IMG/VR virus record: IMGVR_UViG_3300010429_000418
Coordinates: 1 to 41,412 of that record
Reading direction: 5' to 3' (one strand)
Length of the DNA stretch: 41,412 nt
Origin: a virus
Shown here: positions 8,789 to 36,598 of the stretch, piece after piece
Numbering within the stretch: the first letter of the stretch is position 1
How the letters are laid out: the number at the start of each line of letters is the position of its first letter
The notes under the pieces: model-generated
What the model saw: the letters and a program-made list of their open reading frames with translations, nothing else
Database searches by the model: none
What the model was told of the DNA's origin: nothing
Program-made: the position numbers and the translations under genes

Positions 8789-9885
8789 TAGTAATCCCAG
8801 TCCTTGCCATTAAAGGTATATGTTATGCCGTTCTTAGTTATAGTATCACCGACTTTATATTGACCTTGAGTTTGCTGCCCCTTAAGGCTAACTCCCTTCC
8901 CTTTAGTCTCAGCAATAACATTCTCAAAAGGTGTAATATAATCTCCATCAGGACTTAAACTATATCTTCCTTGCTCAATCATTTGCTTTCTTGTATTAAG
9001 GGCATTTTCGATATAGTCAAAACTTGACTTTCTTATCTTAGATGATTGACCTGGCTTCCACAACAGTGGAAGTGCTCTTGCTTCAGCATCAGCATCAGAT
9101 AACCTCGTATCTCCAGTTAAAGCACGATACAGGGATACTGCCATAGCAGGTCTTTGCATAAGATACTGGTAATGTTCTGTAGCCCAACCGCCACCACTTA
9201 TTGCTGCTGCTGTTCCTTGGGCTATTCGACTTCCTGGATAAGTCCCTATCTTTTCAGCAAGTGAGCGCATATCTTTGATATTAGATATTTGCTGATTTAC
9301 TTTATCAAGGTCATTTTTCTGTTGAACAGTAGGAACTTTTGACTTTATCTCAGTCTGCATTTCTAATTTAGCCGCCTCATCAGCAAGTTGTTTCTTTAAA
9401 GTCGGCTGTATCTTTGTTTCAATTCTTTTACTACCAAATGGAGTTTCTGTTACTCCAATGGGAACTTCCTCATATCCTTCCATTATGTCTTTAGCAGGAG
9501 CCTTGACCTCACCAGAGCCTAAAGATGGAGTAGTAATTATTTGTGATGGAGTAGTAGTTTCTTTACCACCTAATACACTACTAACATCTATTCCTAAAGC
9601 AGTATTAGGGTCTAATCCAGCATCATAAGCCGCTTTTGCCGCAGTTGCTATCTTACCTCTTTCAACAACATCCTCTAAAGGCGACCTATTCTCTTTTTCC
9701 GCCTTTGCCTTGTAGTCAATTAAAGTCTTCTGGCTCTCTAACTCCTGTTTAATTGCCTTATCCTGATTAAGAGTGTCCACAAGGACTTTAAGGGCAGAAC
9801 CTACGCCAGAGAGGCGACCACCTGCTCTTTGCCCCATTTCAAACCACTGCCCTGCGTTAGCTCCTAAATTAGCCGTATTCATCAT
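8788..9885 (-). CDS. Internal virion / ejection-protein candidate (365 aa)
   Basis: Positional call; start and stop overlap the neighbours. Confidence 0.45.
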   Translation of the reverse strand: MMNTANLGANAGQWFEMGQRAGGRLSGVGSALKVLVDTLNQDKAIKQELESQKTLIDYKAKAEKENRSPLEDVVERGKIATAAKAAYDAGLDPNTALGIDVSSVLGGKETTTPSQIITTPSLGSGEVKAPAKDIMEGYEEVPIGVTETPFGSKRIETKIQPTLKKQLADEAAKLEMQTEIKSKVPTVQQKNDLDKVNQQISNIKDMRSLAEKIGTYPGSRIAQGTAAAISGGGWATEHYQYLMQRPAMAVSLYRALTGDTRLSDADAEARALPLLWKPGQSSKIRKSSFDYIENALNTRKQMIEQGRYSLSPDGDYITPFENVIAETKGKGVSLKGQQTQGQYKVGDTITKNGITYTFNGKDWDY

Positions 9886-11876: not shown

Positions 11877-14603
11877 TTATGCAGTAGCTCTATCCTTAAC
11901 ATTCACGCCCAATGGCTCTCCATATAACTCTAACCCATATAAAGTAGGCGCAGGATTCGAGCCATCGCATACTATCTTTGTCTGGAACATATTATGTATA
12001 GTCCTCACATCGAACATACTTACCTTGCCAAACTCATATTCATCTGCCCTATTGTAAGCAAAGTTCTGTGCTGTTGTCCACGCCGCATTCTGGTCTAACC
12101 TGAACTGGAATGACATATTTGCAGTAGTAAGTGAGTATGCTTCCTTGTATCTTACTCCAAGAAGCAAACCCTTTGACATAAGCCCTAACGCTTCTGGCTT
12201 GAACTTACCTGATACCCAGTATGCTCTTATATCAGAGCCGTCATCATCATTACCGCTCTCTGTAAGGTAAGCATACCCGCTATACCCTGCCGTGTATAAT
12301 AGTTTCTCCTTGTTAGTTGACACTACTATAGCCGAAGAAGCAAATGGTTGGTTATCGTAAGGGAATAACCCACCTGTCTTATAGTCAAAGATAAACGCAT
12401 ACCCAATGGTAGTATCAGTATTAAGGACTACATAGAGTATATACTCATTAGTTTTCTTGTTGACCTGTGCGTGAAAGAGGTCTGAATACATCATATTGCA
12501 GTCAGACAAAGCAATAGGTTGGTCATCAGCCGCTTGGAACAAATCATTAGTTTTCTCTATTGACGTATCATTGACATACTCAAGGTCATATCCGTTAAAT
12601 ACAGCAAGTTTCTTATCTGCCGTAAAGAAGCAAAGAACTGTCCCGACATCACCGCCCATATCTATTTCTTTAATTGAGTAGTGAGAGGGTGTGCCTACGC
12701 CAATGATAGGGTCAACTTGGAAAGTAGGATTTGAACCTACATAACTTACTCTATGGATAGAGAACCTCTTGAAGACATAGAGACGTCCTCTCAACTCTCT
12801 TATGCCAGTTATTATATCTCCATCATTAGTATGTATAGTAAGTGAGTTTGCAGAAGCCCAAGTTGTATAGTCATTAAGGGCAGAATATCTTATCTCATTA
12901 GGAGAACCTCGTAATCCTGCTATAAAGACATAGTTCTTGAATATAGTCATAAACCTGCCGATAGGAGCGGCTCCTACAGTGCCAAGATTACCTGTCCCTG
13001 TATAAGTATATAGTCCTATATCTGAATTAAGCAACATACGCCCTGATTTCCAGTCAGCAAATGTCCAGTTTCTTCCATAGGATATATCTATTGTGCCTTT
13101 TGAATAAGCCGATGTAGGAGGAGTAAAATTAGCAGTCCATCTCGCTACACCTTTACATACTCTTAATTCATCTATCCATCCATTAACATATAAAGTTCCT
13201 GCACCATATCTGCCTATAATAAGAGCAGAAGCACCAATACTTGATAGAGTGCCGAATGTTGTTAAAGTAGTTAAAGCTGTAGAAACACCATCAATAAATA
13301 GATAAGCATTTGAACCATTTCTTACAAATGCAATATGATACCAAGTATCATCTGATGGAGACCAATTACTTGTAGCAGTATATGCTGCTTTTGCGACACC
13401 TCCTACTATCCATACAAATATCCATTTATGTTTATGTGTAGCATCGTCTTTCATAAGATACCATCTATTATTTGCATCTACATATTGCCCGATAACAACT
13501 TGACCTTCAGTGGAAGAAGCATATCTTATCCAGAAGTCAATCGTGAAATCTCCTTCTCCAAAGTCCCAATCATCACTATCAGGGATAGTCACATAGTCGC
13601 TATTACCATCGAGGAGTAAAGAAGATGCTCCGAACTTCTTCTGTGCTGTATCGAGTTGAGCTGTTCCACCAAAAGTAACTGTTCTTGCCCCGTCATCTTC
13701 TGTAGTATAGGCAGTTGCCGCATCTGCACCATCCCAATGGACTATTAACTTTGTGTAAGAATCCCAAGAAGAACCACCACCAAGAGCATCCCAAGTGCCA
13801 TCAGGAGTCCCAGCATTGGTCTTATCCATTTTATATACAGTAGTTCCCCAAATGCCCATTACCATACGCTTGGAATTGAAGTCCCATAAAGCATAGCCAT
13901 CATTTCCAAGGACACCACCTGTAATATAGACCTCAAAGACTGCATCATATGCGGTATCTACTACCCAAGTAGCACCATCATAGTAAGACATTGAGCCGTT
14001 AGGATAGATTACATCATAGTCATCAATGCCCCATTTGATATAGTTAGTCCCGTCTACATTAAAGTCGCCTACCAAGACTATATGGTATTGAGTGCCTGCT
14101 ACAAGGACAGGATTTGTAGTAAAAGTAAACTCTATCCAAGAATAAGAACTTGTTATAGTGTCTGATATATCAACATCATCTGAAGTTCCATTAGCAACAG
14201 GAGTTCCTGAAGGCACACCAGAAGCATCTGTCTGTATTTCAATATGGACTGTATCTGTTCCTGCGGGAGTTCCTTCTGACTTGAGCCATAACCTGACTTT
14301 AGTAACATCAGCAGAAGTAGAGGGCTTAAATCCCTGTGAAATCTCGGTATGAGTAGCAGTATCCATTAGGTTGTAATCAGTCGTCTGATAGCCAGGAGGA
14401 TAGGCAACATCAAGACCAGCAGAGGGAATTGCTCCAGAGTTTAATTTGGCATAGCCACCCCTAACAACGAGCCTCTCCTTCATTCCTGCACAATGCCAGT
14501 TTCGCATATTAGGAGATTTAGACGAGGGCATAGCCAAGAGCGGAGTCTTTGTATCCTGCCCGCCCCCAAAATCACTAATGACTATTGCTGACTGCCTAAT
14601 CAC
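11877..14603 (-). CDS. Tail nozzle / tail-tubular-B-like structural protein with an inserted LamG (concanavalin-A-like lectin) domain
   Basis: A 908-aa ORF in the position of the podovirus nozzle gene. The central segment LLLDGNSDYVTIPDSDDWDFGEGDFTIDFWIRY...WYHIAFVRNGSNAYLFIDGV...GWIDELRVCKGVARW is a textbook Laminin_G_3 pattern. Confidence 0.6.
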   Translation of the reverse strand: MIRQSAIVISDFGGGQDTKTPLLAMPSSKSPNMRNWHCAGMKERLVVRGGYAKLNSGAIPSAGLDVAYPPGYQTTDYNLMDTATHTEISQGFKPSTSADVTKVRLWLKSEGTPAGTDTVHIEIQTDASGVPSGTPVANGTSDDVDISDTITSSYSWIEFTFTTNPVLVAGTQYHIVLVGDFNVDGTNYIKWGIDDYDVIYPNGSMSYYDGATWVVDTAYDAVFEVYITGGVLGNDGYALWDFNSKRMVMGIWGTTVYKMDKTNAGTPDGTWDALGGGSSWDSYTKLIVHWDGADAATAYTTEDDGARTVTFGGTAQLDTAQKKFGASSLLLDGNSDYVTIPDSDDWDFGEGDFTIDFWIRYASSTEGQVVIGQYVDANNRWYLMKDDATHKHKWIFVWIVGGVAKAAYTATSNWSPSDDTWYHIAFVRNGSNAYLFIDGVSTALTTLTTFGTLSSIGASALIIGRYGAGTLYVNGWIDELRVCKGVARWTANFTPPTSAYSKGTIDISYGRNWTFADWKSGRMLLNSDIGLYTYTGTGNLGTVGAAPIGRFMTIFKNYVFIAGLRGSPNEIRYSALNDYTTWASANSLTIHTNDGDIITGIRELRGRLYVFKRFSIHRVSYVGSNPTFQVDPIIGVGTPSHYSIKEIDMGGDVGTVLCFFTADKKLAVFNGYDLEYVNDTSIEKTNDLFQAADDQPIALSDCNMMYSDLFHAQVNKKTNEYILYVVLNTDTTIGYAFIFDYKTGGLFPYDNQPFASSAIVVSTNKEKLLYTAGYSGYAYLTESGNDDDGSDIRAYWVSGKFKPEALGLMSKGLLLGVRYKEAYSLTTANMSFQFRLDQNAAWTTAQNFAYNRADEYEFGKVSMFDVRTIHNMFQTKIVCDGSNPAPTLYGLELYGEPLGVNVKDRATA

Positions 14604-15319
14604 GAGTTATAATCTCTCCCTCTTGAAACCCTGCCATTGACTCCGTGTAAGATGCCGTATGCAGGCTTGATAGTAGAACCCTTGCCCTTGAAGTTAATGT
14701 CATTACTGAAATACTTGTTTAACTCCTTCATACCTTTTTGTTCCCATATGCCTACACCAGTAGCGTCTCCTTGAGAAGCGCATAACTCTGCTACAGCGTA
14801 GTAGACAAGAGCCATCTGGCTATTAGTATTGGGGATTTCAGGGACATCGGTGTCACCAGACAACTCTGTAGGCTTCTTGTCATAGTCTACGTAGATAGTA
14901 GTATATAGTGATACAAATGAAGAAGAGGGCTTGGGAGAGACATAGAATAACTCGGTTCCTGTCTTAACGGAGAATATACATACAGTAGGGTCTCCCTCGT
15001 TCTGCGTATCCTCATTATCAGACCATTCATCTTCAGTAACTATCCTGATAGGTTGCCTTATCCCATTGCTTATGTAGTAAACTTCAACAGGGTAGTTATA
15101 GCCAGTTAGACCTGCTATAGAGTAAGACTGTGTTCCTGCAACAGGAGTAATAGTGCCTGTCCTTCTTAAGGCAGTCCACCTACGTTCTGAAGCAAGCCTG
15201 CGAAGAGCGTCATTGACTGCCACTTTCGCTTTAGTATCAGAACCGACTATATTCTTGATACTGGCATAATCTTGGACACGACCATAGATTTCACTGAACT
15301 CTAACCCATAGGTAGCCAC
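14600..15319 (-). CDS. Head-to-tail adaptor / tail-tubular-A-like protein (positional)
   Basis: A 239-aa ORF directly upstream of, and overlapping, the nozzle-like gene. No motif recognised. Confidence 0.4.
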   Translation of the reverse strand: MATYGLEFSEIYGRVQDYASIKNIVGSDTKAKVAVNDALRRLASERRWTALRRTGTITPVAGTQSYSIAGLTGYNYPVEVYYISNGIRQPIRIVTEDEWSDNEDTQNEGDPTVCIFSVKTGTELFYVSPKPSSSFVSLYTTIYVDYDKKPTELSGDTDVPEIPNTNSQMALVYYAVAELCASQGDATGVGIWEQKGMKELNKYFSNDINFKGKGSTIKPAYGILHGVNGRVSRGRDYNS

Positions 15320-15775
15320 TTATTCCTCCAACATCTCCTTAATCTTCTTTACTATATTATCCAACTTAATCTTCAATGCCTTATTGTCTCTTGCTTCTAT
15401 GTCAAGGTTAGCTCTCATACCTTTATTGGACTTAATGAGGGATTCTGCCTCGGCTTTAAGTGCTTTGGCTTCCTCTAACTTAGCATTGGAATCAGCAGTC
15501 TTCTTATTCGCATCGTCTTCCTGTGCCTTTACCTTGACATAGAGTTCAGATGCCTTATCTTTAATCTTATCTGCTTCTTCCTTAGCTTCTGATATAATCT
15601 GTTCTCTCTCACTCTTTGCTTTCTCTGCCTGTTCCTTTAAGATAGGTATCTGCTCTTCAAGTTCCTGCTTCTCTGTCTTGAGTTTAGACACATAAGGTCT
15701 TAACCTCTTTAATTCTTCTTGTGTCTCAAGCAATTCTTTCTCATCGGGAACTAAATTACCCCTTCTATCTGCCAT
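15320..15775 (-). CDS. Lys/Glu-rich coiled-coil protein (151 aa)
   Basis: ORF track; almost entirely heptad-like charged helix (EELKRLRPYVSKLKTEKQELEEQIPILKEQAEKAKSEREQ...). Confidence 0.5.
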   Translation of the reverse strand: MADRRGNLVPDEKELLETQEELKRLRPYVSKLKTEKQELEEQIPILKEQAEKAKSEREQIISEAKEEADKIKDKASELYVKVKAQEDDANKKTADSNAKLEEAKALKAEAESLIKSNKGMRANLDIEARDNKALKIKLDNIVKKIKEMLEE

Positions 15776-16080
15776 TACTTCTTCTCCTTCCTTGGACGAC
15801 CTACAGGTTTCTTATGGACTGGAGTTGCTTTAAGTTCAATTTCCGAATTTTCAGATTCTTCCTTGACAGGTTGTCCTATCTTATGGACTTGTTCAGGTAT
15901 AGTCAACGGGACTACCTTATACTTGCCAAGCATTAGCAATTCTCTTGCAAGCAATTCAGGAACATCAAGAGTGAACTCATTATCTTTGCTAAAGACATAT
16001 GTTTTCCTTGCCCAATTTGACTTAACCTTTGACATACTTCCAGTATACTGTATCCTAATCATTTCCATTCGCCACCTCAC
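15775..16080 (-). CDS. Hypothetical protein with a basic AT-hook-like tail (GRPRKEKK)
   Basis: ORF track (GTG start). An internal ATG at 16062 has a better-spaced GAGGTGG RBS. Confidence 0.45.
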   Translation of the reverse strand: MRWRMEMIRIQYTGSMSKVKSNWARKTYVFSKDNEFTLDVPELLARELLMLGKYKVVPLTIPEQVHKIGQPVKEESENSEIELKATPVHKKPVGRPRKEKK

Positions 16081-17185
16081 CTTTCATTAAGAACGCTGAT
16101 AGACCTGCCAACATTACTATTGACGTGAACGCCAAACGAGGGAAATCTAAGAAAGACTGGCTTAACCCGCAGAGTGCCAGTATGACCACTGAAGCAAACA
16201 AGCACTCGAATGGTTTACTTACCTTAGACTTCCTATATCTGATTATTCTATCTATGAAGAAGTAGGATAGTGTTATAATACCTACTATTCCAAGATAGTA
16301 ATATATTGTTAAATATATGGAATAAGTTGTTGTGCTATTTCCTATTGTAGGTATAGCAGAGGAAAAAGAACCTAACTTGTGTCCGAAGAAACTGAAATCT
16401 ATGCTTTGGAGCCAGACTTGAGAACGTATAGATAACTTATAGATAAGACCTTTATAGAGATATATAAGGTATAAGCCAAGACCACCATAAATACCGAGCA
16501 TAGGGATAGATAACAGGTTATTGCGCCTTAACAAGAACATCATACCGATTAAGGATGCAACCAAAGGAACTATTGAACTTGACAATAGCAACCCTATAAT
16601 CGGGATAAGAACAAGCCAAGGAGAAAGCATATAGACCATAGGTATAGAGATTGCTTGATAGAGAGCCATATGATTTGATATGAACATTGCTCCATCGCAT
16701 CTTATTGTGTTATAGACCAAGTATATGCCGAGTGCCTGCATAACAGCAAACACAGTATTCAAAGCCGAAACTATAAGCATAGGATAAGCGATAGTCCTTA
16801 CATCTTTAATGTAGCACACTATGAGGTAATAAAGTAAGAAACCCAGTAATACGAACGGGAATACCTTAATGCCTATAGGATGTAACATCAAGTTAAGCAA
16901 AACAAGAATGAATAGTAATGAGATGGGCTTATCCTTGAACCCTCTATGCTGATTAGACAAAGTAGCGACTACAAGCAAGATTACCACAGCCAACTCAAAG
17001 AACAGCAACTGGATAGACGGAATATCCATTATATTGAGCATATTGAATTGATAATACTGATAAGATGCCACCCATCCATTTAGGCGTGGTATATTCCACG
17101 GGACAAAGACTATTGGTGTAAGCACCAGTAGTATGCCAAGGACTATATCAAATATCCTATCTTTCACATTACTATTCATACTCAA
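16055..17185 (-). CDS. Polytopic membrane protein, O-antigen ligase/polymerase-like (Wzy_C / WaaL / PglL class)
   Basis: About 12 predicted TM helices. One larger loop after roughly TM9 carries R and H (RSQVWLQSIDFSFFGHKLGSF), resembling the R..W......G.G.G.F loop recalled for Wzy_C proteins. The gene is visibly more AT-rich than its flanks. Its start overlaps the upstream exported-protein gene by 14 nt. Confidence 0.5.
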   Translation of the reverse strand: MSMNSNVKDRIFDIVLGILLVLTPIVFVPWNIPRLNGWVASYQYYQFNMLNIMDIPSIQLLFFELAVVILLVVATLSNQHRGFKDKPISLLFILVLLNLMLHPIGIKVFPFVLLGFLLYYLIVCYIKDVRTIAYPMLIVSALNTVFAVMQALGIYLVYNTIRCDGAMFISNHMALYQAISIPMVYMLSPWLVLIPIIGLLLSSSIVPLVASLIGMMFLLRRNNLLSIPMLGIYGGLGLYLIYLYKGLIYKLSIRSQVWLQSIDFSFFGHKLGSFSSAIPTIGNSTTTYSIYLTIYYYLGIVGIITLSYFFIDRIIRYRKSKVSKPFECLFASVVILALCGLSQSFLDFPRLAFTSIVMLAGLSAFLMKGEVANGND

Positions 17186-17534
17186 CTAATACTTTCATAT
17201 TCGATATGTCAAGATAAGCGCCTGTGGAGAACTCAACGGGATTGTCAGAGAAATCAATCGTCTTGCCATTGCCAGAGGTCGCTTCTGAACCCTCAATCTT
17301 TATTGTAGTATTACTTTCCCCTGCTGTTCCTACAGAATCATAGATACCAAAGAAGGCAGTATTAGCAGTCGCTTGAAAAGTAACCTTGTATATCTTAACA
17401 TCTTCAGGCGAACTTATACCCTTAATCTGCCCGCTTGCTACAAATCCCTTTATAGTATGCTGGTCTTTATACGCCCCGTGAGCCAACGGGCATATAAGAG
17501 CCATTACTATCAATACCGATATTAACCTTCTCAT
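17172..17534 (-). CDS. Sec-exported small beta-rich protein, paralog B
   Basis: Start trimmed to MRRLISVLIVMALICPLAHG|AYKD (GGAG RBS 6 nt upstream). By eye the mature part aligns with the product of 17593..17958 at about 35-40 percent identity (IYKVTFQATANTAFFGIYDS...IKIEGSEAT vs VYKLFFWASAASSYFALYDC...VKMEGGEAT). Confidence 0.6.
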   Translation of the reverse strand: MRRLISVLIVMALICPLAHGAYKDQHTIKGFVASGQIKGISSPEDVKIYKVTFQATANTAFFGIYDSVGTAGESNTTIKIEGSEATSGNGKTIDFSDNPVEFSTGAYLDISNMKVLVEYE

Positions 17535-17550
17535 ACTAATCTCCATTGGG

Positions 17551-17585
17551 TTAGGGGGGCAAGCCTTGAAGACCTACCCCCCTGA
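17551..17585 (-). other. G6/C6 stem-loop in the spacer between the two exported paralogs
   Basis: TTAGGGGGG (17551-59) pairs with CCCCCCTGA (17577-85) around a 17-nt loop. No T-run follows on the coding strand, so it is not a canonical terminator. Confidence 0.4.
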
Positions 17586-17592
17586 CTTCATT

Positions 17593-17958
17593 CTACTGGT
17601 AAAGTATGGTTACGTATCCACCTGTGGTGATAACAGCCGTTACACCAGTCTGGAATACAATACCATCTTCGCCAAAGTCATACCAATTACCGTCATACTG
17701 CGTCGCCTCTCCACCTTCCATCTTTACTTTGTCATTGGAGTTAGTATCACCAACTGTAGCACAATCGTAAAGAGCAAAGTAAGAAGATGCAGCCGAAGCC
17801 CAGAAGAATAACTTGTATACTGTGGCTCCGTGTCCGACCATTACGCCAGTCGCTATAACAGTCTTAGAAGATAACGGGCTATCCCTGTCTATCTTCGCAA
17901 ACGCTACACCCGATACCATCAACCCTATTACTACAAGAAGAGCAATAAGTCTTTTCAT
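17593..17958 (-). CDS. Sec-exported small beta-rich protein, paralog A
   Basis: Signal peptide MKRLIALLVVIGLMVSGVAFA|KIDR; paralogous to 17172..17534; immediately downstream of the capsid gene. Confidence 0.6.
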   Translation of the reverse strand: MKRLIALLVVIGLMVSGVAFAKIDRDSPLSSKTVIATGVMVGHGATVYKLFFWASAASSYFALYDCATVGDTNSNDKVKMEGGEATQYDGNWYDFGEDGIVFQTGVTAVITTGGYVTILYQ

Positions 17959-17970
17959 ATTAAGCCCTCC

Positions 17971-19290
17971 TTATATAGTGCCAGGATTATTGGCATAGGA
18001 TTTACAGAGCAAGTAGTTCTTCGCTACACTTGCCGTGTTCTTTATAGCAACCTGACCAAAGATGGCTTCTATACCGATACCATTCTCGAAGCCATAGTCA
18101 TACAACTGGGTAATCGGGCTGGGTTTCATACCCCAACCACGCACAGCGACTTCAGCGCCGAAACCTATCTGCGTGGAAACGTCCCTAAGCGTTACTAAAT
18201 CGCCAGCAGTATGGATAGCACCAGTCGTGCCATTCGCACCACGAGCGGATATGGTAAAGCCATAGACCGACTTCGCAGTATAGGTCAACTCTTCCGTGCC
18301 TATCTTCAACGTGCCTGTAGCGGGGAAGAACTTGGTAAAGTTCGTCTTGCCCGAAGCGCCGAGAGTTACATAGTTAGCGCCTGTCGTTGAAGCATCTATC
18401 GTGGAATAGAGCCTACCTTCAGGGCGAAGCGGGCTACCAAGGACATTGTTAGCCGACTTTACCGAGCGGTTGACATAGACTATACAGCCATTCCACATAC
18501 CGATAGCACCCGTGAAGAGCGGATTACCCGTGCCCCTGTCAGCGGCATAGAACTGGGCTTTCTTCCAGTCCTCATCACCCTTGAGCCAGTATTCGTCAAC
18601 TTCAGATATGACGATACCAAAAGCCTCAAGTTCCTCACCACTTGACATCTTCGAGGATATAGGCAACGCACCTTTCCTCTGGAGAGCCAACTTGATACGG
18701 TCTATCTCTTCGACACCGAACGTATCATTAGCACCAAGGCTGGCTTCTGTCGTAGCATCACCGGCATAGAGAGTATCAGGGGATTCAGTCGTGATTAACT
18801 GGTAGAACATCCCCTCATCTATGTAGCGGGACATCCAATCAGATAACCTCTGGCGTGCCACCTGAACTATGTCAAAGTTGACCCTGCGCTGGACGTTCTT
18901 TGTAAACGCTACCGCATTACGTATCCAGTCAACCGTAAGGTCGAACTGCGCCATAGCCAGTTTATCTTCACTACCCATCAATGATGTCTCACCCGTTACG
19001 CCTGAGGAGAAGAGGTCTGAAAGAACCTGGAAGTGAATGACATCTCCCGGCCCTTTCTCCAAATCGTCCTTGACTATAATGGGTTTACTGCTACCTTCCG
19101 CACCTTCAAAGCGTGAGCCCCAGAATGCCTTGCGTATACCGTCATTGTAGAGCCTCTTATTCCACAATGTGGGTATGGCGTAATCCAACTCGCCAGCACC
19201 TGAATTATAGGTCATAGTATTGAGTGTTGCCATACCTGACCTATGCTCAAACTTAAAGCAACGGAGGGTAGACCAAAGTTTGCGAAACAT
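17971..19290 (-). CDS. Major capsid protein (N4-gp56-type HK97 fold)
   Basis: A 439-aa ORF after the scaffold-like gene. The N-terminal region ...YAIPTLWNKRLYNDGIRKAFWGSRFEG...PIIVKDDLEKGPGDVIHFQVLSDL...GETSLMGSEDKLAMAQFDLTVDWIRNAV matches my recollection of the N4-gp56 capsid family. AGGAGG lies 9 nt upstream of ATG 19290; the alternative start MATLNTM is at 19233. Confidence 0.8.
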   Translation of the reverse strand: MFRKLWSTLRCFKFEHRSGMATLNTMTYNSGAGELDYAIPTLWNKRLYNDGIRKAFWGSRFEGAEGSSKPIIVKDDLEKGPGDVIHFQVLSDLFSSGVTGETSLMGSEDKLAMAQFDLTVDWIRNAVAFTKNVQRRVNFDIVQVARQRLSDWMSRYIDEGMFYQLITTESPDTLYAGDATTEASLGANDTFGVEEIDRIKLALQRKGALPISSKMSSGEELEAFGIVISEVDEYWLKGDEDWKKAQFYAADRGTGNPLFTGAIGMWNGCIVYVNRSVKSANNVLGSPLRPEGRLYSTIDASTTGANYVTLGASGKTNFTKFFPATGTLKIGTEELTYTAKSVYGFTISARGANGTTGAIHTAGDLVTLRDVSTQIGFGAEVAVRGWGMKPSPITQLYDYGFENGIGIEAIFGQVAIKNTASVAKNYLLCKSYANNPGTI

Positions 19291-19296
19291 TAGAAA

Positions 19297-20070
19297 CTAC
19301 CTCCTGTTGTTAATTTTCTGTTGAACCGTCCACGCATCATATGCGTCTTTCTGTTCATCAGACAACTTGTTATATGTTTCCTCGGTTAAGACCCCTGTTG
19401 GAGTATAACCGCCTGTAGCACGACCTGATACTGAAGTTGCCTGACCTTTCTTCGCTACTATTGCCTGCTTGTTAGGAGCCTGCTTGGATAACTGAGCATA
19501 AGCGGCGTCTACAGCAATTCTGTAAGCATAAGGCGTAGCAAGGATAAGCACTCCGCTATCATCTCTCGTTGCTAAACCACGCTCAAAGAGTATCTTATCC
19601 GCTAACTGGAATAACTCTGACTGCTGATTGTTCAAGTCAGGGTATTCCTTCAAGGTTTCTGCCCAGCAATCAGCGACTTGCTTTTGGTAAGCCGATTCTG
19701 ATTTCTGGGACTGGGCAAACTCATTCAAGTGATTCCTAATATACCACTTGATGGCAGCATCAGTTTCCTTATCAAAGAAGTCCTCATATCCACCCTTGTT
19801 AGGAGAAGGTTGAACAGGGGTTGCCCTATTCTGACCTTGGATACTCTGAACTATCTCCTGAAGTCTCTTAACTTCTGCCGCTAACCTCTTGCCCTCATTA
19901 CTGGACTCGCCATACAAACGCTCAAGTTCTTTGGGGTCTGATGTGCGACCAGCATAGAGATAAGGTTCTACCTGACCTTGTGCTTGTCCTGCTCCCTCCT
20001 GCCCTGCTACACCTGTGGCTTCCAGAGGTTCCTGTTCGGGAGTTGTCTGGGTTGCGCCATTAGGTTCCAT
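19297..20070 (-). CDS. Scaffolding protein candidate
   Basis: Lies between the portal and capsid genes. Low-complexity acidic/Gln-rich N-terminus and helical content. No protease motif. Confidence 0.55.
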   Translation of the reverse strand: MEPNGATQTTPEQEPLEATGVAGQEGAGQAQGQVEPYLYAGRTSDPKELERLYGESSNEGKRLAAEVKRLQEIVQSIQGQNRATPVQPSPNKGGYEDFFDKETDAAIKWYIRNHLNEFAQSQKSESAYQKQVADCWAETLKEYPDLNNQQSELFQLADKILFERGLATRDDSGVLILATPYAYRIAVDAAYAQLSKQAPNKQAIVAKKGQATSVSGRATGGYTPTGVLTEETYNKLSDEQKDAYDAWTVQQKINNRR

Positions 20071-20457: not shown

Positions 20458-20706
20458 TTACTTTGTCCTTGACCTTATTTCCATCTGTTTGGGTAAATCA
20501 TATGCTAACTTCAAACCCTTTTTAATCAACTGAAGGCGCTTAAGCCCATCACCATCTATATTATCATTATCCATATCAACTTCATATGAAGTAATAATCT
20601 TCTTTAACTCTTCTGCATATGCTTTCCAGCCAGGAGTATTAGAGATGCGATACCATTCTGCATATGCCTCCCTTATCTTCTCATTAGCCATTAGGAAGAG
20701 CCCCAC
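20458..20706 (-). CDS. Hypothetical head-module protein (82 aa)
   Basis: ORF track; overlaps the portal 3' end; the probable true start is MANEKIRE at 20691. Confidence 0.5.
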   Translation of the reverse strand: MGLFLMANEKIREAYAEWYRISNTPGWKAYAEELKKIITSYEVDMDNDNIDGDGLKRLQLIKKGLKLAYDLPKQMEIRSRTK

Positions 20707-22636
20707 TTTCTACTGCTTTGACTTGCGGTTGAGATTCAAGAGGACGCTGTTCTTTAGGAGTCTGCTGGACTTGTTTTGCCTGCATCTCCTGCAAGGTCAA
20801 TGCCAGTTGTTCCCTCTGCTTGGCTTCCACTTCCTCTATCGTAGGCAACTTCACATTCCGCATATCAATAGAACGGAAGAAGTTCTGCGTTACTACCCTC
20901 ATCACATTGTTGTCTATAAAAGGATTCTTTTGGTAAGAGTTCATAGCAGTAGTATAGGCATCACTGGCACGTTTCTGCTCTACCTCTCTATTGATATTGA
21001 CTGAATTACCTACTGCCTCAAAATCAAACGCCCCGCCCCACTTGCTTTGGCTAATCTTCTTGAACGGGTTAGAGGTCTGCTCTGTCAAGTAATAGATGAA
21101 ATCATCAGTCATATAGTCAGCATTCAAGTCTACAATGAACTCGTATAACTCCTCGTTAACATCCTGTAACGCCCTAATCATATCATCGAACTTGACATTA
21201 CCCTCGCCTATGATTGAAAGGATACCAGTCGCTGTCCTCTGGTTGCCTGTATCTTGCCCTAACGAGTAATCAGATACCCCAAATAACTTCTGAACCATAC
21301 CAAGCAGGAACTCCATCTTGGAGAACTCCATCTGCTCGCTCTTCGGAAGTTCAAGAACACCAAACCCGTCAGGATTATCAGTAGGCAACTTGCACCCTGG
21401 ACCAAACGGGTTCTCGTCGGCATCATAGTTAAGGGGAACCTTGATAGGCGGGTTATTAGTAATTGAACCCCTGTCTATCATCTGGTTGAATATAGCGTCC
21501 ACAAGGTTGCGGATACCAATAAGGAACTCTGGGACACCTTTGCCATAGAATGACCCCTCCATAGGTATAATCTGGTAATGGAAGAACGGTCTCTTAGGAT
21601 ACGGAGTAATCATCCATCCAAGTAACTTGTCATTCTTATAATCTGTCTCGACATTATTGACAAAAGGACGTGCCAAGAATGCTACTATCTCTTCTTCTAA
21701 CCCGTCTCCATTTATATCATATCCCCCGTGCCATTCAGAGATTAAGACTTTGGCAAACTGGGACTTATCTGTTCCAACCGCTTTCCCTTGCACATCTTGT
21801 TCAAGTTCCGTTATTACCGCCTCATTGAACTTACCCTCTGCGGGGTCGCCTATACGTTTCTTAAGCCAGTCTATAGTCCTTAAGTATTCATCATCTACCC
21901 AATCAAGGTCTTGAATGTCGGCAGTATCAGCATCTTTAGGTATAATGAAGTTCTTGAGAGAACGAGGATAGATGCGAGGGCTGTCATATATTTTGACCTG
22001 CTCACTTGTAATCTCCTTTGATACCTGATAGACATTACCCATCTCATCAGGCTGAGGCTGGAACTCTTTATCTACCTCTAACGGCTCCCCTGTCTCTGGA
22101 TTAGGAACTTTCTGCCCTGTCATAGGGTCTACCAAGAAATACTTGGTCTTATTGACTACTTTGTAGTCCTCTTCCCATACACACTTGGCAATCCCATCCC
22201 CATTCATAGCAGTAGACTTAAAGACCAGTTTCATAGACCTGTATATATGCATCTTTGTTGATACTTGGAAGTTGAGGGCATCTTGGACTTGTTCGGCATC
22301 AACTAAATCACTCTCTCCCCTGCCTCTTACCCAAACAATAGGCTTGGCTCCATAGCAGACTTTAAGGAATCTTGGTAGAAGCCCCTCAATAGTGAATGCC
22401 TCTAAGGGTATGCCAATATCAGAGCAATCGTCCCACGGCTCATTCTTAGGAGCTGACTTGGCATCGTCTCCCCAACCCATAAGACCAGAGATGCTTCTCT
22501 TTGCCTCGTATCTCTTGACAAAGCCATCTACTTTATCAAAGTGAGACGCCCACTTCCTCTTGCCGTCGTCTATCCACTTGGCAATAGAGTCCTTCATCTT
22601 TACTTCATCTAACTGAAATATCTTGTCCTCTGCCAT
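20684..22636 (-). CDS. Portal protein
   Basis: A 650-aa ORF downstream of the terminase genes and upstream of scaffold and capsid. The segment PWDDCSDIGIPLEAFTIEGLLPRF resembles the conserved N-terminal portal motif of T7/N4-type connectors (recollection only). Confidence 0.7.
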   Translation of the reverse strand: MAEDKIFQLDEVKMKDSIAKWIDDGKRKWASHFDKVDGFVKRYEAKRSISGLMGWGDDAKSAPKNEPWDDCSDIGIPLEAFTIEGLLPRFLKVCYGAKPIVWVRGRGESDLVDAEQVQDALNFQVSTKMHIYRSMKLVFKSTAMNGDGIAKCVWEEDYKVVNKTKYFLVDPMTGQKVPNPETGEPLEVDKEFQPQPDEMGNVYQVSKEITSEQVKIYDSPRIYPRSLKNFIIPKDADTADIQDLDWVDDEYLRTIDWLKKRIGDPAEGKFNEAVITELEQDVQGKAVGTDKSQFAKVLISEWHGGYDINGDGLEEEIVAFLARPFVNNVETDYKNDKLLGWMITPYPKRPFFHYQIIPMEGSFYGKGVPEFLIGIRNLVDAIFNQMIDRGSITNNPPIKVPLNYDADENPFGPGCKLPTDNPDGFGVLELPKSEQMEFSKMEFLLGMVQKLFGVSDYSLGQDTGNQRTATGILSIIGEGNVKFDDMIRALQDVNEELYEFIVDLNADYMTDDFIYYLTEQTSNPFKKISQSKWGGAFDFEAVGNSVNINREVEQKRASDAYTTAMNSYQKNPFIDNNVMRVVTQNFFRSIDMRNVKLPTIEEVEAKQREQLALTLQEMQAKQVQQTPKEQRPLESQPQVKAVESGALPNG

Positions 22637-26349: not shown

Positions 26350-27276
26350 ATGAAAGTTTTGTCTTTGTTTGATGGAATATCTTGTGCAAGGGTTGCCCTT
26401 GAAAGAGCAGGGTTTGCTGTTGAATTATATTACGCAAGCGAGATAGATAGATATGCTAAACAAATATCAATTAAAAACTACCCAGATGTTTTGCAAATTG
26501 GAGATGTAAAAGAAATTCAATCTCACCTGATTACAGGAATAGACCTTTTAATTGGTGGAAGCCCTTGTCAGGATTTATCTATCGCAAAAAGAGACAGAAA
26601 AGGACTTGATGGCGAACGAAGTGGTTTGTTTTGGGAATATGTCAGAATACTCAAAGAAGTAAAACCGAAGTGGTTTATTTTGGAAAATGTCGCCTCAATG
26701 TCCAAAAATAATAGAGATATTATTTCAAAAACATTAGGGATTGAGCCGATAATGATTGATGCCTCTTTAGTGTCTGCACAAACTCGTAAACGATATTTTT
26801 GGACGAATATACCAAATGTTGAACTTCCTCAAGATAGGAATATTAGGTTAAAAGATATTTTGTTGCCTGATACATATACAGAATATGACAAATCATATCC
26901 GCTAACGGCTTCCTACAATGGTGCGGTATTGTGGAATAGTATAGACAAAAATCAAAGAACAATGGTTTGGAACAAGCCTATAAAAGTTGGACACTTCAAA
27001 AGTGGCGGTCAAGGTCAAAGAGTATATTCTATAGACGGAAAATCAGTAACGCTTTCTGCTCATGGTGGCGGTTGGGGGGCAAAGACGGGATTATATTTGA
27101 TAAAAGATTATGCTCGGAAATTAGAGCCGATTGAGTGTGAGAGATTACAGGGATTGCCAGATGACTATACGGCTGGTATTTCAAAAAATAAACGAAGAAA
27201 AGTATTGGGCAATGCTTTTAATGTAGATGTAATTGCTCATATTCTAAACGGAATAAAGAAATATGAAAATCTATAA
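26350..27276 (+). CDS. DNA (cytosine-5)-methyltransferase
   Basis: Motif I LSLFDGIS, motif IV GGSPCQDLS, motif VI ENV (FILENVASM), motif VIII QTRKRYF and motif X GNAFNVDV appear in canonical order. Confidence 0.9.
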   Translation: MKVLSLFDGISCARVALERAGFAVELYYASEIDRYAKQISIKNYPDVLQIGDVKEIQSHLITGIDLLIGGSPCQDLSIAKRDRKGLDGERSGLFWEYVRILKEVKPKWFILENVASMSKNNRDIISKTLGIEPIMIDASLVSAQTRKRYFWTNIPNVELPQDRNIRLKDILLPDTYTEYDKSYPLTASYNGAVLWNSIDKNQRTMVWNKPIKVGHFKSGGQGQRVYSIDGKSVTLSAHGGGWGAKTGLYLIKDYARKLEPIECERLQGLPDDYTAGISKNKRRKVLGNAFNVDVIAHILNGIKKYENL

Positions 27277-27880
27277 AATCACAGAGGCAAGCGAATATCT
27301 TGGCATAAGTATAAATTCATTAAAAACTTTAGCGAATAATGGTAAAATAAATTCTTTTAAGACAGATGGAAAACACAGGCGTTTCAGAGAAGATGACCTT
27401 GACGCTTATATGGGAGTCAAGAAAGAAAAGCAAGAACGGTTAACCGTAATTTACGCCAGATGTTCTACCGCCAAACAAAAAGAAAACCTTGAAAGACAGA
27501 AAGACAGATTGAGAAAACACGCCGAAGAAAAAGGGTATAAGTATTTGATGATAGATGAAATAGCAAGCGGAATAAACGAAAAACGCAAAGGAATACACAA
27601 GCTGATTAAGATGTGTTTTGAGGGAAAAGTTGAACGGATTTTGATTGAATATAAAGACAGACTTGCCCGATTTGGTTACGAGTATCTTGATGCCATTTTC
27701 AAAAATCTCGAAATTACGGTTGAGGTTGTTGAGACAAAAGAAAAGAAATATGAAGAAGAATTAGCAGAGGATATTATGAAAATTCTTACCTGTTATTCCG
27801 CTCGTTTTTATGGAAGGCGTGGCGGTAGAAAGAAGAAAAATACGGCTGAGAATGAGCCTATCGAATCTAATGGAATTTAA
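27263..27880 (+). CDS. IS607-type small serine recombinase (N-terminal MerR-like HTH plus resolvase catalytic domain)
   Basis: HTH region ITEASEYLGISINSLKTLANNGKI, then VIYARCSTAKQKENLERQKDRL (catalytic Ser region), SGINEKRKG, KDRLARFGYEYL and a C-terminal ...YSARFYGRRG. This domain order is the IS607 TnpA arrangement, not the Hin/Gin type. It overlaps the methyltransferase 3' end by 14 nt. Confidence 0.8.
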   Translation: MKIYKITEASEYLGISINSLKTLANNGKINSFKTDGKHRRFREDDLDAYMGVKKEKQERLTVIYARCSTAKQKENLERQKDRLRKHAEEKGYKYLMIDEIASGINEKRKGIHKLIKMCFEGKVERILIEYKDRLARFGYEYLDAIFKNLEITVEVVETKEKKYEEELAEDIMKILTCYSARFYGRRGGRKKKNTAENEPIESNGI

Positions 27881-28031: not shown

Positions 28032-28185
28032 CAAGTATTACATTCCGCACTCCAAGAGGGAGACGCTTGCCTACTTGGTAAGGCGGTATCCTAACGGGCA
28101 TTTCAGCGAGATGAAGGCGAAACAGTTATTGGCGATTTATATGAGGACACGGGAGAAGGACGAAAGGGAAATGGTGGGAAGATGA
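28018..28185 (+). CDS. Hypothetical small protein (55 aa, TTG start), or the 3' remnant of a disrupted gene
   Basis: Not in the ORF track. The open frame LDNFDKYYIPHSKRETLAYLVRRYPNGHFSEMKAKQLLAIYMRTREKDEREMVGR ends in an ATGA overlap with the next gene. AGGA lies 8 nt upstream of the TTG. Confidence 0.35.
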   Translation: MDNFDKYYIPHSKRETLAYLVRRYPNGHFSEMKAKQLLAIYMRTREKDEREMVGR

Positions 28186-36582: not shown

Positions 36583-36598
36583 GAAAGGGAGGGAGAAG

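What the first reader, a model, noticed from the sequence alone, without database searches (positions are those of the whole stretch)
16055..17958. Two Sec-exported paralogs plus a Wzy/WaaL-like 12-TM protein wedged between the capsid and tail genes
**Seen in the sequence**
- Directly after the major capsid gene come two paralogous genes of about 120 aa. Each product has a textbook Sec signal peptide (MKRLIALLVVIGLMVSGVAFA, MRRLISVLIVMALICPLAHG) and a beta-rich mature domain.
- A G6/C6 hairpin separates the two genes.
- The second gene overlaps by 14 nt the start of a 376-aa polytopic membrane protein. Its one large loop carries an R...W......GHKLGSF motif reminiscent of O-antigen ligase/polymerase (Wzy_C) enzymes.
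- The membrane-protein gene is visibly more AT-rich than the surrounding structural genes.

**Established knowledge**
- Virion proteins are not Sec substrates.
- wzy-type genes are typically AT-rich, horizontally mobile genes.
- Temperate phages such as D3 and the Shigella SfX class carry O-antigen modification genes.
- PglL/PilO-type Wzy_C enzymes glycosylate periplasmic proteins.

**Inference**
- This looks like a moron cassette that remodels the host envelope, either for serotype conversion or for superinfection exclusion.
- More speculatively, the pair of exported proteins could be dedicated substrates or partners of an O-oligosaccharyltransferase-like enzyme.

The combination, and its location inside the head-tail operon, is unusual.
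Basis: partly seen in the sequence, partly recalled or inferred. Interest (0 to 1): 0.7.

Follow-up and report, generated by a model that had tools for sequence, protein, structure and literature searches.

The report
Exported protein pair with glycan-ligase-like enzyme
An uncultivated groundwater phage, and every sampled relative but one, encodes two secreted small proteins and a sugar-ligase-like membrane enzyme inside its capsid-to-tail operon, so this is probably a built-in periplasmic sugar-attachment system rather than a recently acquired passenger gene.

Summary
After the major capsid gene come two paralogs (33% identical) with Sec-type signal peptides and a confidently modelled jelly-roll domain. 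A GC-rich hairpin separates them. The second overlaps a 374-aa, about 12-helix membrane protein.

That protein has no Pfam hit itself. However, 53 of 77 relatives match Wzy_C, and its best structural match is the O-antigen ligase WaaL.

The "moron" reading fails:
- Almost every sampled relative (capsid identity down to 52%) carries the same block in the same place.
- Third-codon GC matches the neighbouring genes, so the AT-richness reflects hydrophobic amino acids.
- No integrase was found among the scanned ORFs and no prophage copy in reference genomes.
- GenBank phages have no homolog of the membrane protein or of paralog B.

One relative keeps both small genes but has a different membrane protein with TPR repeats and two TMTC/PMT-clan motifs. 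This, plus the known adjacency of PglL/TfpO enzymes to their substrates, favours a dedicated protein-glycosylation pair (confidence about 0.35). Against it, the window enzyme has Tyr where WaaL/PglL have an essential His.

The main rival is envelope-glycan remodelling. The purpose of the module is unknown.

The parts
17971..19290 (-). Major capsid protein (439 aa). It is the upstream neighbour and anchors the conserved block.
   Evidence: Pfam Phage_capsid_3, E 2.1e-23. PHROG 334 major head protein, E 5.5e-39.
17593..17958 (-). Paralog A (121 aa): a Sec-type signal peptide (cleavage predicted after AFA, residue 21) followed by a jelly-roll domain. It starts 12 nt after the capsid stop codon and has an AGGAGG ribosome-binding site.
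   Evidence: AlphaFold2 model pLDDT 92.2. Fold matches. It is the fastest-evolving gene of the block, 29-36% identity where the capsid protein is 54-85%.
17550..17586 (-). GC-rich stem-loop between A and B. It is probably a leaky terminator or an mRNA-stabilising hairpin that sets expression of A above that of B and the enzyme.
   Evidence: -26.3 kcal/mol, z -2.3. A hairpin at the same position with a different sequence occurs in 10 of 12 relatives examined. The L008 copy is followed by a T-run.
17172..17534 (-). Paralog B (120 aa): a Sec-type signal peptide (cleavage predicted after AHG) followed by a jelly-roll domain carrying the invariant EGSEATSGNG loop.
   Evidence: The database gene call P0014 is 120 aa.
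16055..17179 (-). Wzy_C/WaaL-like polytopic membrane protein (374 aa, about 12 helices). Its start overlaps the stop of B by 8 nt. The predicted periplasmic loop 241-286 carries R252, W256 and GHKLGSF. Y286 sits where ligases have the catalytic His.
15775..16068 (-). Small conserved protein (about 97 aa, MEMIRIQYTG..., basic C-terminal tail). It overlaps the end of the membrane gene and is co-conserved with the block. Its function is unknown.
   Evidence: Orthologs occupy the same position in L001, L002, L005, L006, L008, L010, L027 and L029. No Pfam or PHROG hit.
15320..15775 (-). Coiled-coil, highly charged protein (151 aa) just before the adaptor gene. It is conserved in most relatives but absent from L029.
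14600..15319 (-). Head-to-tail adaptor. It is the downstream anchor of the block.
   Evidence: Pfam SU10_adaptor, E 1.4e-17.

Best explanation
This is a conserved, late-expressed periplasmic glycan-transfer module, not a passenger gene.

**Shown**
- A and B are transcribed with the capsid gene.
- Both carry Sec-type signal peptides with a conserved cleavage site.
- Both fold as small jelly rolls.
- The next gene is translationally coupled to B and encodes a WaaL/PglL-like (Wzy_C) membrane protein.

**Predicted from topology (positive-inside rule) and by analogy with WaaL**
- The conserved loop of that protein faces the periplasm.

**Inferred**
- The enzyme takes a host undecaprenyl-pyrophosphate-linked glycan and transfers it onto A and/or B.
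- This would be a dedicated oligosaccharyltransferase-substrate pair, like PilA-TfpO or ComP-PglL.
- The hairpin and the weakening ribosome-binding sites would give more substrate than enzyme.

**Not known**
- What the modified exported proteins then do.
For: **Obligate linkage**
- In all 20 loci first retrieved, the membrane gene is preceded by exactly two genes of the small-protein family.
- 20 of 21 informative loci chosen by capsid protein alone have the trio.
- 28 of 29 informative loci chosen by the B-type protein alone have it.
- The B stop and the enzyme start overlap.

**Enzyme identity**
- 3 of 12 close relatives and 53 of 77 distant relatives match Pfam Wzy_C, best E 1.3e-17.
- The only meaningful Foldseek hit is WaaL 7TPG: probability 1.0, TM 0.51/0.48, all other hits below 0.25.
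- R252 is nearly invariant across the 77-sequence family and aligns with WaaL R288.

**Export**
- Signal peptides are conserved in 65 of 67 family members, with an A|D-x-R cleavage site.

**Replacement in one relative**
- L029 keeps A and B, but the Wzy_C-like gene is replaced by an unrelated polytopic protein.
- That protein has C-terminal TPR repeats, a DD pair right after its first helix, and AERYLY before a late helix.
- These match motifs M1 and M7 of the TMTC/PMT protein O-mannosyltransferase clan (PMC7801869).

**Precedent**
- 21 of 31 pglL homologs lie next to their target protein gene. Such pairs are often in the same orientation (PMC3643930).

**Wider pattern**
- More distant phage Wzy_C-like genes also sit beside small signal-peptide proteins in structural modules (L024, L025, L027).
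Against: **Catalytic residues**
- The window protein has Tyr (Y286) where WaaL has H338 and PglL has H349.
- It probably has Ser where the wider family has Lys and WaaL has R215. Both residues are reported as important (PMC3643930).
- The enzyme may therefore work differently or not be catalytic.

**Weak direct evidence for family membership**
- The window protein has no direct Pfam hit.
- The profile of its 12-member family, and the closer-to-Wzy_C relative P0010, gave no PDB sequence hit.
- Its structural model is only moderate, pLDDT 62.6.

**Substrates unlike known ones**
- A and B are folded jelly rolls, not pilins or low-complexity Ser-rich segments.
- No PglL-specific domain was detected.

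**The L029 replacement is thin evidence**
- It is a single contig.
- The glycosyltransferase nature of its membrane part rests on two short motifs and overall architecture, with no HMM support.

**Other gaps**
- No glycan or glycoprotein has been observed.
- The benefit to a phage of glycosylating exported proteins minutes before lysis is unexplained.
Confidence: 0.35

Rival explanations
1. Envelope-glycan remodelling. The Wzy_C-like protein would act as a polymerase or ligase on host O-antigen, capsule or a similar glycan late in infection. The two periplasmic jelly-roll proteins would be glycan-binding accessory factors. The benefit would be to mask or alter receptors on the dying cell and its debris, so that progeny are not wasted or late superinfection is blocked.
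For: - Wzy_C membership and a WaaL-like fold.
- Polymerases of this superfamily do not need the ligase His (my recollection). This would fit Y286.
- The jelly-roll fold also matches lectin and receptor-binding-protein domains, for example the BC2L-C lectin and the CDHS-1 receptor-binding protein, though weakly.
- The block evolves much faster than the capsid and portal proteins, as host-surface-specific functions do.
- The phage also encodes a large fibre with an endosialidase-chaperone domain and an outer-membrane barrel protein.
- Phage Wzy_C enzymes that change O-antigen are known, such as D3 Wzy-beta (PMC9658991).
Against: - Known phage O-antigen converters are lysogen-expressed morons near the integrase with patchy distribution. 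This block is a universal late-operon component.
- Late expression leaves little time for new LPS to reach the surface.
- No known Wzy or WaaL needs secreted jelly-roll partners.
- The L029 replacement carries TPR repeats, typical of protein-binding domains. However, ArnT-type lipid A modifiers belong to the same clan.
Confidence: 0.27
2. Capsid decoration proteins. A and B would be virion components, as the gene position just after the capsid gene suggests. Either the hydrophobic N-termini are not used for export, or the proteins are exported, possibly modified, and bind capsids only once holin action or lysis mixes the compartments. The membrane protein would be unrelated, or would be their modifier.
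For: - Cultured phages with a related capsid protein have a roughly 110-150-aa protein annotated "virion structural protein" or "structural protein" directly after the capsid gene, for example PEp14/Bcep22-type phages and KLEP18-1 gp12.
- A lies upstream of the conserved hairpin, in the same expression unit as the capsid gene.
- The best fold matches are 91-103-aa uncharacterised phage proteins (TM up to 0.87, rmsd about 2 Å) and small viral jelly-roll coat proteins.
- In a distant phage (L025), a signal-peptide protein right after the capsid gene has a sub-threshold Phage_cement_2 match, E 0.0028, and a Wzy_C gene lies two genes downstream.
Against: - A cleavable signal peptide is conserved in essentially every family member. 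Tailed-phage capsids assemble in the cytoplasm.
- No sequence homology to any known decoration family, nor to the structural proteins of the cultured relatives.
- GC3 of A (0.41) is ordinary, unlike the capsid gene (0.53), so codon usage does not mark A as a very highly expressed gene.
- By itself this reading does not explain the obligate membrane enzyme.
Confidence: 0.15
3. Recently acquired moron for lysogenic conversion (serotype conversion or superinfection exclusion).
For: - Lower raw GC of the membrane gene.
- Wzy-type genes are often mobile.
- Temperate phages such as D3 and VarioGold carry Wzy_C genes.
Against: - The block is present at the same position in almost every sampled relative, down to 52% capsid identity.
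- GC3 equals that of the neighbours.
- The genes are overlapping or tightly spaced, with no internal promoter-like enrichment.
- No integrase was found among the scanned ORFs, only a small IS607-like serine recombinase.
- No relative was found in 185,579 reference genomes, within the limits of a pattern scan.
- The membrane protein has no match in GenBank phages.
Confidence: 0.04
4. Lysis helper. A catalytically altered Wzy_C-like protein, with periplasmic partners, would sequester undecaprenyl-linked precursors or disturb the outer membrane, and so assist or time lysis.
For: - Late expression.
- Canonical ligase residues are replaced.
- No spanin pair was identified in the window. The only lysis-type gene recognised is an SLT-domain protein at 28182-28739.
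Against: - There is no precedent for this.
- Distant homologs keep the full catalytic triad.
- It does not explain two fast-evolving secreted jelly-roll paralogs, nor the TPR-bearing replacement in L029.
Confidence: 0.06

Closest known systems
Dedicated O-oligosaccharyltransferase-substrate gene pairs (P. aeruginosa PilA-TfpO/PilO; Acinetobacter ComP-PglL; pglL homologs next to pilin genes)
   Same: - A Wzy_C-type polytopic enzyme is encoded directly downstream of, and co-oriented with, genes for Sec-exported proteins.
- The layout implies more substrate than enzyme.
- The Arg equivalent to WaaL R288 is conserved.
   Different: - The candidate substrates are jelly-roll proteins, not pilins.
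- The catalytic His is Tyr.
- No PglL-specific motif was found.
- The system is encoded by a virulent-looking phage inside its capsid-to-tail operon.
- There are two (sometimes three) paralogous candidate substrates.
Serotype-converting Wzy_C genes of temperate phages (D3 Wzy-beta with Iap and Oac; VarioGold VG_p25 with neighbouring signal-peptide or membrane proteins)
   Same: - A phage-borne Wzy_C superfamily membrane protein accompanied by small exported or membrane proteins.
   Different: - Those genes are morons near the integrase, expressed in lysogens, with patchy distribution.
- This block is a universal, late-operon, translationally coupled component.
- The membrane protein gave no tblastn match in GenBank phages.
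WaaL O-antigen ligase (PDB 7TPG; E. coli K-12 WaaL)
   Same: - It is the best and only meaningful structural match.
- About 12 helices, with the conserved loop after helix 9.
- The R-x3-W ... G-x-G-x-G-x-F motif.
   Different: - The loop is much shorter (46 residues).
- The H338 equivalent is Tyr, and the R215 equivalent is probably Ser.
- No sequence-level hit to any solved structure.
- Not located in an LPS locus.
Virion structural (presumed decoration) proteins encoded just after the capsid gene in cultured relatives (Bcep22/PEp14-type 152-aa protein; KLEP18-1 gp12)
   Same: - Same gene position.
- Small, beta-rich proteins.
   Different: - Those proteins have no signal peptide and no detectable sequence similarity to A or B.
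- No membrane enzyme follows them.
TMTC/PMT-clan protein O-mannosyltransferases (GT-C with TPR domain)
   Same: - The gene that replaces the Wzy_C-like gene in relative L029 shares their architecture: many helices followed by TPR repeats.
- It also has the DD (M1) and ERxxY (M7) motifs.
- TMTC enzymes O-mannosylate cadherins and protocadherins (PMC7801869), whose extracellular domains are beta-sandwiches (my recollection). This fits A and B as acceptors.
   Different: - Only two of seven motifs match.
- There is no HMM or structural support.
- It is a single contig, and it is not the window's own gene.

Membership tests
Wzy_C superfamily (Pfam PF04932: WaaL / PglL / Wzy) | A direct match of the protein to the Wzy_C model above Pfam's gathering score | tested here: not met
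   The window protein has no Pfam hit at E <= 0.1. The closest relatives that hit reach at most 27.8 bits, against a cutoff of 31.7.
Wzy_C superfamily (Pfam PF04932: WaaL / PglL / Wzy) | Homology traceable through intermediate sequences | tested here: met
   A profile of 12 homologs finds 651 proteins at E <= 1e-3. Of 77 aligned, 53 match Wzy_C, best E 1.3e-17. The matches cover the full model at the equivalent region, residues about 178-300.
Wzy_C superfamily (Pfam PF04932: WaaL / PglL / Wzy) | About 12 membrane helices with the conserved periplasmic loop after helix 9, and a WaaL-like fold | tested here: met
   Hydropathy with the positive-inside rule, and the AlphaFold2 helices. Foldseek top hit is WaaL 7TPG, TM 0.51/0.48, with the next hits below 0.25. 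Caveat: model pLDDT is 62.6.
WaaL/PglL-type ligases (catalytically canonical) | An Arg equivalent to E. coli WaaL R288 / PglL R298 | tested here: met
   R252 is nearly invariant across 77 relatives and aligns with R288. Its importance is stated in PMC3643930.
WaaL/PglL-type ligases (catalytically canonical) | A His equivalent to WaaL H338 / PglL H349 | tested here: not met
   The window has Y286-S287 where distant relatives and WaaL have H-N. In the 14 closest relatives aligned, the position is Tyr in 12, Cys in one and Gln in one. The hhalign probability is low, but the register agrees with the motifs.
WaaL/PglL-type ligases (catalytically canonical) | A basic residue equivalent to WaaL R215 / PglL R224 | tested here: inconclusive
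   The wider family has S-K-S, the window has S-S-S and its closest relatives have S-G-S. The equivalence to T-Q-T-R215 of WaaL was judged by eye, not from a scored alignment.
PglL/TfpO-type dedicated O-oligosaccharyltransferase systems | The enzyme gene is adjacent to and co-oriented with the gene of an exported target protein | tested here: met
   The precedent is in PMC3643930.
PglL/TfpO-type dedicated O-oligosaccharyltransferase systems | PglL-specific flanking motifs, and pilin-like or low-complexity Ser acceptor sites | tested here: not met
   No PglL-type Pfam domain appeared in any scan. A and B are jelly rolls with no pilin features.
PglL/TfpO-type dedicated O-oligosaccharyltransferase systems | Demonstrated glycan on the target protein | not testable with these tools
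   This needs expression followed by mass spectrometry or glycan staining.
Phage serotype-conversion morons (D3 Wzy-beta type) | Patchy distribution, own regulation or expression in the lysogen, a location near the integrase, and atypical composition | tested here: not met
   The block is near-universal in the clade. It lies in the late operon with overlapping genes. No integrase was found among the ORFs scanned. GC3 equals that of the neighbours. The membrane protein gave no tblastn match in GenBank phages.
Capsid decoration / cement proteins | A small beta-rich protein encoded directly after the major capsid gene | tested here: met
   The same position is occupied by a virion structural protein in cultured relatives.
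Capsid decoration / cement proteins | A cytoplasmic protein (no signal peptide) with homology to a known decoration family | tested here: not met
   The signal peptide is conserved in 65 of 67 members. No Pfam or PHROG hit. hhalign to the KLEP18-1 and Mwe-JY25 proteins is negative.
Capsid decoration / cement proteins | Presence on purified virions | not testable with these tools
   No cultured member of the clade exists. This needs proteomics or cryo-EM.

The most novel reading that the evidence does not exclude
A and B are capsid decoration proteins that take a detour through the periplasm. They are exported and receive a host-derived glycan from the phage's own Wzy_C-like transferase (a TMTC-like one in L029). 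They bind the finished capsids only when holin action or lysis mixes the compartments. The result would be a tailed-phage virion coated with glycan made by a periplasmic, lipid-linked glycosylation route.
Probability: 0.12. Interest if true: 0.9.

Novelty: new variant of a known kind. Interest (0 to 1): 0.68.

Why it matters
- Tailed phages are not known to keep a periplasm-facing glycan transferase and secreted proteins as a fixed part of their structural operon. Known phage Wzy_C genes are optional lysogenic-conversion cargo.
- If the trio is a dedicated protein-glycosylation system, it would be the first phage-encoded one of the periplasmic, lipid-linked type.
- It would also be a compact enzyme-plus-substrate pair of possible use in glycoengineering.
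- It would raise the question of what exported glycoproteins do for a lytic phage. Candidate roles are receptor masking, debris decoys and post-lysis virion coating.
- The block also defines and marks a sizeable uncultivated clade of roughly 40-kb podophages. Contig names point to groundwater sources, and GenBank phages lack homologs of the membrane protein and of paralog B.

Tried and rejected
**Searches that found nothing**
- Direct Pfam, PHROG and NCBIfam scans of the three window proteins.
- Sequence searches against PDB with the 12-member family profile and with relative P0010.
- blastn of the region, and tblastn of the membrane protein and mature B, against 50,697 GenBank phages.
- A word-based homolog search with paralog A alone found only itself. 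An alignment of syntenic orthologs was needed.
- Pattern scans of 185,579 reference genomes for the membrane protein and the capsid protein found no relative, so the host remains unknown. These scans depend on exact short peptide patterns and can miss distant relatives.

**Comparisons that were negative**
- hhalign of the small-protein family against the post-capsid proteins of KLEP18-1 and Mwe-JY25.

**Attempts to classify the membrane part of the L029 replacement protein (all failed)**
- Pfam found TPR repeats only. NCBIfam, PDB sequence search and the Wzy_C-like profiles found nothing.
- No further copies were found in IMG/VR.
- Its TMTC/PMT-like assignment therefore rests on architecture and two motifs.

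**Ideas considered and dropped**
- That the N-terminal D-R-N-x-S/T of many B-type proteins is a PglB-type N-glycosylation sequon. The Asn is present in only about 42% of members, and the enzyme type does not fit.
- A Bacteroidota-style D-S/T-A O-glycosylation motif, because it is not conserved among orthologs.
- That the coiled-coil protein is an i-spanin. It has no membrane segment.

**Limits reached**


Full report
**What is there**

All genes of the region are on the minus strand. The order, reading along that strand, is:
- portal (20684-22636);
- a probable scaffold (19297-20070);
- major capsid protein (17971-19290; Phage_capsid_3);
- paralog A (17593-17958);
- a GC-rich hairpin (17550-17586);
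- paralog B (17172-17534);
- a 374-aa membrane protein (16055-17179);
- a protein of about 97 aa (15775-16068);
- a 151-aa coiled-coil protein (15320-15775);
- an SU10-type adaptor (14600-15319);
- a nozzle-like protein (11877-14603).

The genes are tightly packed. A starts 12 nt after the capsid stop, behind an AGGAGG site. B's stop overlaps the ATG of the membrane gene by 8 nt, or by 14 nt if the TTG start is used. The next gene overlaps the end of the membrane gene.

**The small proteins**

- A and B are paralogs: 33% identity, E 2e-16.
- Word-based searching with A alone found nothing but itself. A profile built from syntenic orthologs recovered 67 proteins of 105-145 aa, none with a Pfam domain.
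- 65 of the 67 have a basic N-terminus and a strongly hydrophobic core. The remaining two look N-terminally truncated.
- The family consensus around the predicted cleavage site is x-F-A|D-x-R, with Ala 90% at position -1 and Arg 94% a few residues later. Such conservation in a family that otherwise diverges fast argues for real Sec export and signal-peptidase I cleavage. SignalP itself could not be run.
- The AlphaFold2 model of A is confident (pLDDT 92.2). It shows an N-terminal helix followed by nine strands.
- Foldseek places the fold among small jelly rolls. PDB matches are weak: satellite virus coats, nucleoplasmin and a lectin.
- Matches to predicted viral structures are strong. They are uncharacterised phage proteins of 91-103 aa, about the size of the mature domain, with TM up to 0.87 and rmsd about 2 Å.
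- The most conserved parts are loops: E81-G82-x-E84-A85-T86 (T86 99%), T55 and S103-T104-G105.

**The membrane protein**

- It has no direct Pfam, PHROG or NCBIfam hit. A profile of its family, and relative P0010, gave no PDB sequence hit.
- Three of its 12 nearest homologs give sub-threshold Wzy_C matches that span the whole model at the equivalent region.
- An exhaustive profile search found 651 relatives. Of 77 aligned, 53 match Wzy_C, best E 1.3e-17.
- The AlphaFold2 model is moderate (pLDDT 62.6). Its only meaningful structural match is the O-antigen ligase WaaL (7TPG, TM 0.51/0.48, all others below 0.25).
- Hydropathy and the positive-inside rule place the loop 241-286 in the periplasm. 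This loop carries R252, W256 and F-G-H-K-L-G-S-F.

The active site is not canonical.
- In the 77-sequence alignment, distant members have W-x-H-N-E-Y-L...E-x-G. The window's subfamily has Y286-S287 instead.
- The S-K-S motif of the wider family is S-S-S in the window.
- Aligning the family profile to E. coli K-12 WaaL puts R252 on R288, and Y286-S287 on H338-N339. The probability is low, but the register agrees with the motifs.
- R215, R288 and H338 are the residues reported as important in WaaL and conserved in PglL (PMC3643930).
- So the protein belongs to the superfamily but fails one defining feature of the canonical ligases, and probably a second.

**Not a moron**

- Homologs of the membrane protein all lie in the same context: capsid gene, two small genes, membrane gene, a gene of about 95 aa, a gene of about 150 aa, then the SU10 adaptor. 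This holds even at 35% identity and in genomes of 38-43 kb.
- In all 20 loci first collected, the membrane gene is preceded by exactly two genes of the small-protein family.
- A survey chosen only by capsid similarity (28 IMG/VR loci, 52-99% identity) found the small genes wherever any downstream DNA exists. The Wzy_C-like gene was present in 20 of the 21 loci with enough sequence. Three loci have three paralogs.
- A survey chosen only by the B-type protein (35 metagenome loci) found the enzyme gene in 28 of 29 informative loci.
- The lower GC of the membrane gene (0.375) comes from first and second codon positions. GC3 (0.405) equals that of A, B, the coiled-coil gene and the adaptor.
- No promoter-like enrichment occurs inside the block.
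- The scanned ORFs include no integrase, only a small IS607-like serine recombinase. The scans covered the larger ORFs, not every ORF.
- No relative of the membrane or capsid protein was found in 185,579 reference genomes, within the limits of the pattern scans.
- GenBank phages contain nothing similar to the region's DNA, the membrane protein or mature paralog B.
- Known phage Wzy_C genes, such as D3 Wzy-beta and VarioGold VG_p25, are lysogen-expressed cargo near the integrase (PMC9658991).

**Other features of the block**

- A GC-rich hairpin follows gene A in 10 of 12 relatives examined, each with a different sequence. One copy is followed by a T-run. In the other two the extracted spacer was too short to judge.
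- This suggests a leaky terminator or stabiliser that keeps A in the capsid gene's expression unit and lowers expression of B and the enzyme.
- The block evolves faster than its neighbours. Against L005, the capsid protein is 85% identical, but A is 29%, B 63% and the enzyme 46%.
- More distant phage Wzy_C-like genes show related arrangements:
  - L027 has the full A-B-enzyme-small-coiled-coil block.
  - L024 has a capsid-like gene, one signal-peptide beta-protein, then the enzyme.
  - L025 has a signal-peptide protein with a sub-threshold Phage_cement_2 match directly after the capsid gene, and a canonical (His-bearing) Wzy_C gene two genes downstream, followed by another signal-peptide protein.
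  - L026 has the gene just upstream of the terminase genes.

**The one exception**

- In L029 (capsid 73% identical), A and B are retained. The Wzy_C-like gene is replaced by a 487-aa polytopic protein unrelated to it. The same contig was retrieved again as L055 and L094.
- That protein has clear C-terminal TPR repeats, a DD pair immediately after the first helix, and A-E-R-Y-L-Y just before a late helix.
- DD in the first outer loop and ERxxY before helix 10 are motifs M1 and M7 of the TMTC/PMT clan of lipid-linked-sugar-dependent protein O-mannosyltransferases. TMTCs also carry TPR domains (PMC7801869).
- No HMM supports this assignment, and it is a single contig.
- If the assignment is right, two unrelated periplasm-facing glycosyltransferase types occupy the same slot next to the same exported proteins. 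That is easiest to explain if the exported proteins are the acceptors.

**Most likely mechanism**

Shown:
- late co-expression with the capsid gene;
- conserved Sec-type signal peptides on two jelly-roll paralogs;
- a translationally coupled Wzy_C/WaaL-like membrane protein, whose conserved loop is predicted from topology to face the periplasm;
- near-obligate linkage of the three genes.

Inferred:
- the enzyme transfers a host undecaprenyl-linked glycan to A and/or B;
- this mirrors the dedicated PilA-TfpO and ComP-PglL pairs, whose genes are also adjacent and co-oriented (PMC3643930).

I put this at about 0.35. The His-to-Tyr change, the unusual substrates and the absence of any observed glycan all weigh against it.

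Rivals:
- Late remodelling of a host envelope glycan, with A and B as glycan-binding helpers (about 0.27). This fits the missing ligase His and the fast evolution of the block. It fits the TPR-bearing replacement less well, and no known Wzy or WaaL needs secreted partners.
- A and B as capsid decoration proteins (about 0.15). Support comes from gene position, the hairpin, the fold matches, the cement-like protein in L025, and virion structural proteins at the same position in cultured relatives. The conserved cleavable signal peptide contradicts a simple version.
- The two leading ideas can be combined into the most novel reading: exported, glycosylated decoration proteins that coat capsids at lysis (about 0.12).
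- A lysis-helper role (about 0.06).
- The original moron reading (about 0.04).

**Verdict**

- The enzyme assignment is right at superfamily level.
- The moron interpretation is wrong.
- The block is a new variant of known parts (a phage-borne Wzy_C enzyme next to candidate substrate genes) in an unprecedented setting: a fixed late-operon module of an uncultivated phage clade whose contig names point to groundwater sources.
- Its purpose is unresolved, but it can be tested directly by co-expression and mass spectrometry.

Noticed in passing
window 835-1563 (-): A 242-aa protein with a signal peptide (MGKKKGKCLWLLAVLLVVATPVFA) and a C-terminal ...GGTYRF. It has a sub-threshold OMP_b-brl match (E 7.4e-6). 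It looks like a phage-encoded outer-membrane beta-barrel at the end of the tail-fibre region. It implies a diderm host and is a second envelope-directed product.
   Followed up: partly
L029 9241-10704 (same contig as L055 and L094): In one relative, the Wzy_C-like gene is replaced by a 487-aa polytopic protein with C-terminal TPR repeats, DD after its first helix and an AERYLY motif (TMTC/PMT-like). A 63-aa hydrophobic ORF (9080-9271) overlapping the stop of B may be a relic of the displaced gene. The coiled-coil gene is missing in this contig.
   Followed up: partly
L040, L042, L043 (downstream of the capsid gene): These relatives carry three small signal-peptide paralogs before the membrane gene instead of two, so copy number varies.
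   Followed up: no
L025 4236-4763 and 7172-7483: In a distant phage, a 175-aa signal-peptide protein directly after the capsid gene has a sub-threshold Phage_cement_2 match (E 0.0028). A second signal-peptide protein follows a canonical His-bearing Wzy_C gene.
   Followed up: partly
window 26350-27880 (+): A C5 cytosine DNA methylase overlaps a 205-aa serine recombinase with an N-terminal MerR/HTH_17 domain. This is the IS607-TnpA-like domain order, and it is not a large serine integrase.
   Followed up: no
window 36508-38240 (+): A tRNA-Gln(TTG) gene is followed by an RlaP-family nucleotidyltransferase and a poly(A) polymerase/CCA-adding-type enzyme with an HD domain. This looks like a tRNA repair or maintenance cluster.
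   Followed up: no
window 17971-19290 (-) and 11877-14603 (-): The capsid protein (439 aa) is about 70 aa longer than in cultured relatives (about 365 aa). Its Pfam and PHROG capsid matches stop near residue 280 (PHROG), and the Pfam best stretch is 65-172. The nozzle-like protein carries a Laminin_G_3 (concanavalin-like) insertion. Both are possible glycan-binding surfaces on the virion.
   Followed up: no
L074, L090, L096, L091, L098 (contig names): Related contigs carry names such as Hain-H43-01um and C687J35021. The names suggest groundwater samples, and one a 0.1-µm filter fraction, but I could not check sample metadata. The host is unidentified.
   Followed up: no
window 28182-28739 (+): An SLT-domain transglycosylase is the only recognisable lysis-type gene. 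No holin or spanin pair was identified in the scans made.
   Followed up: no
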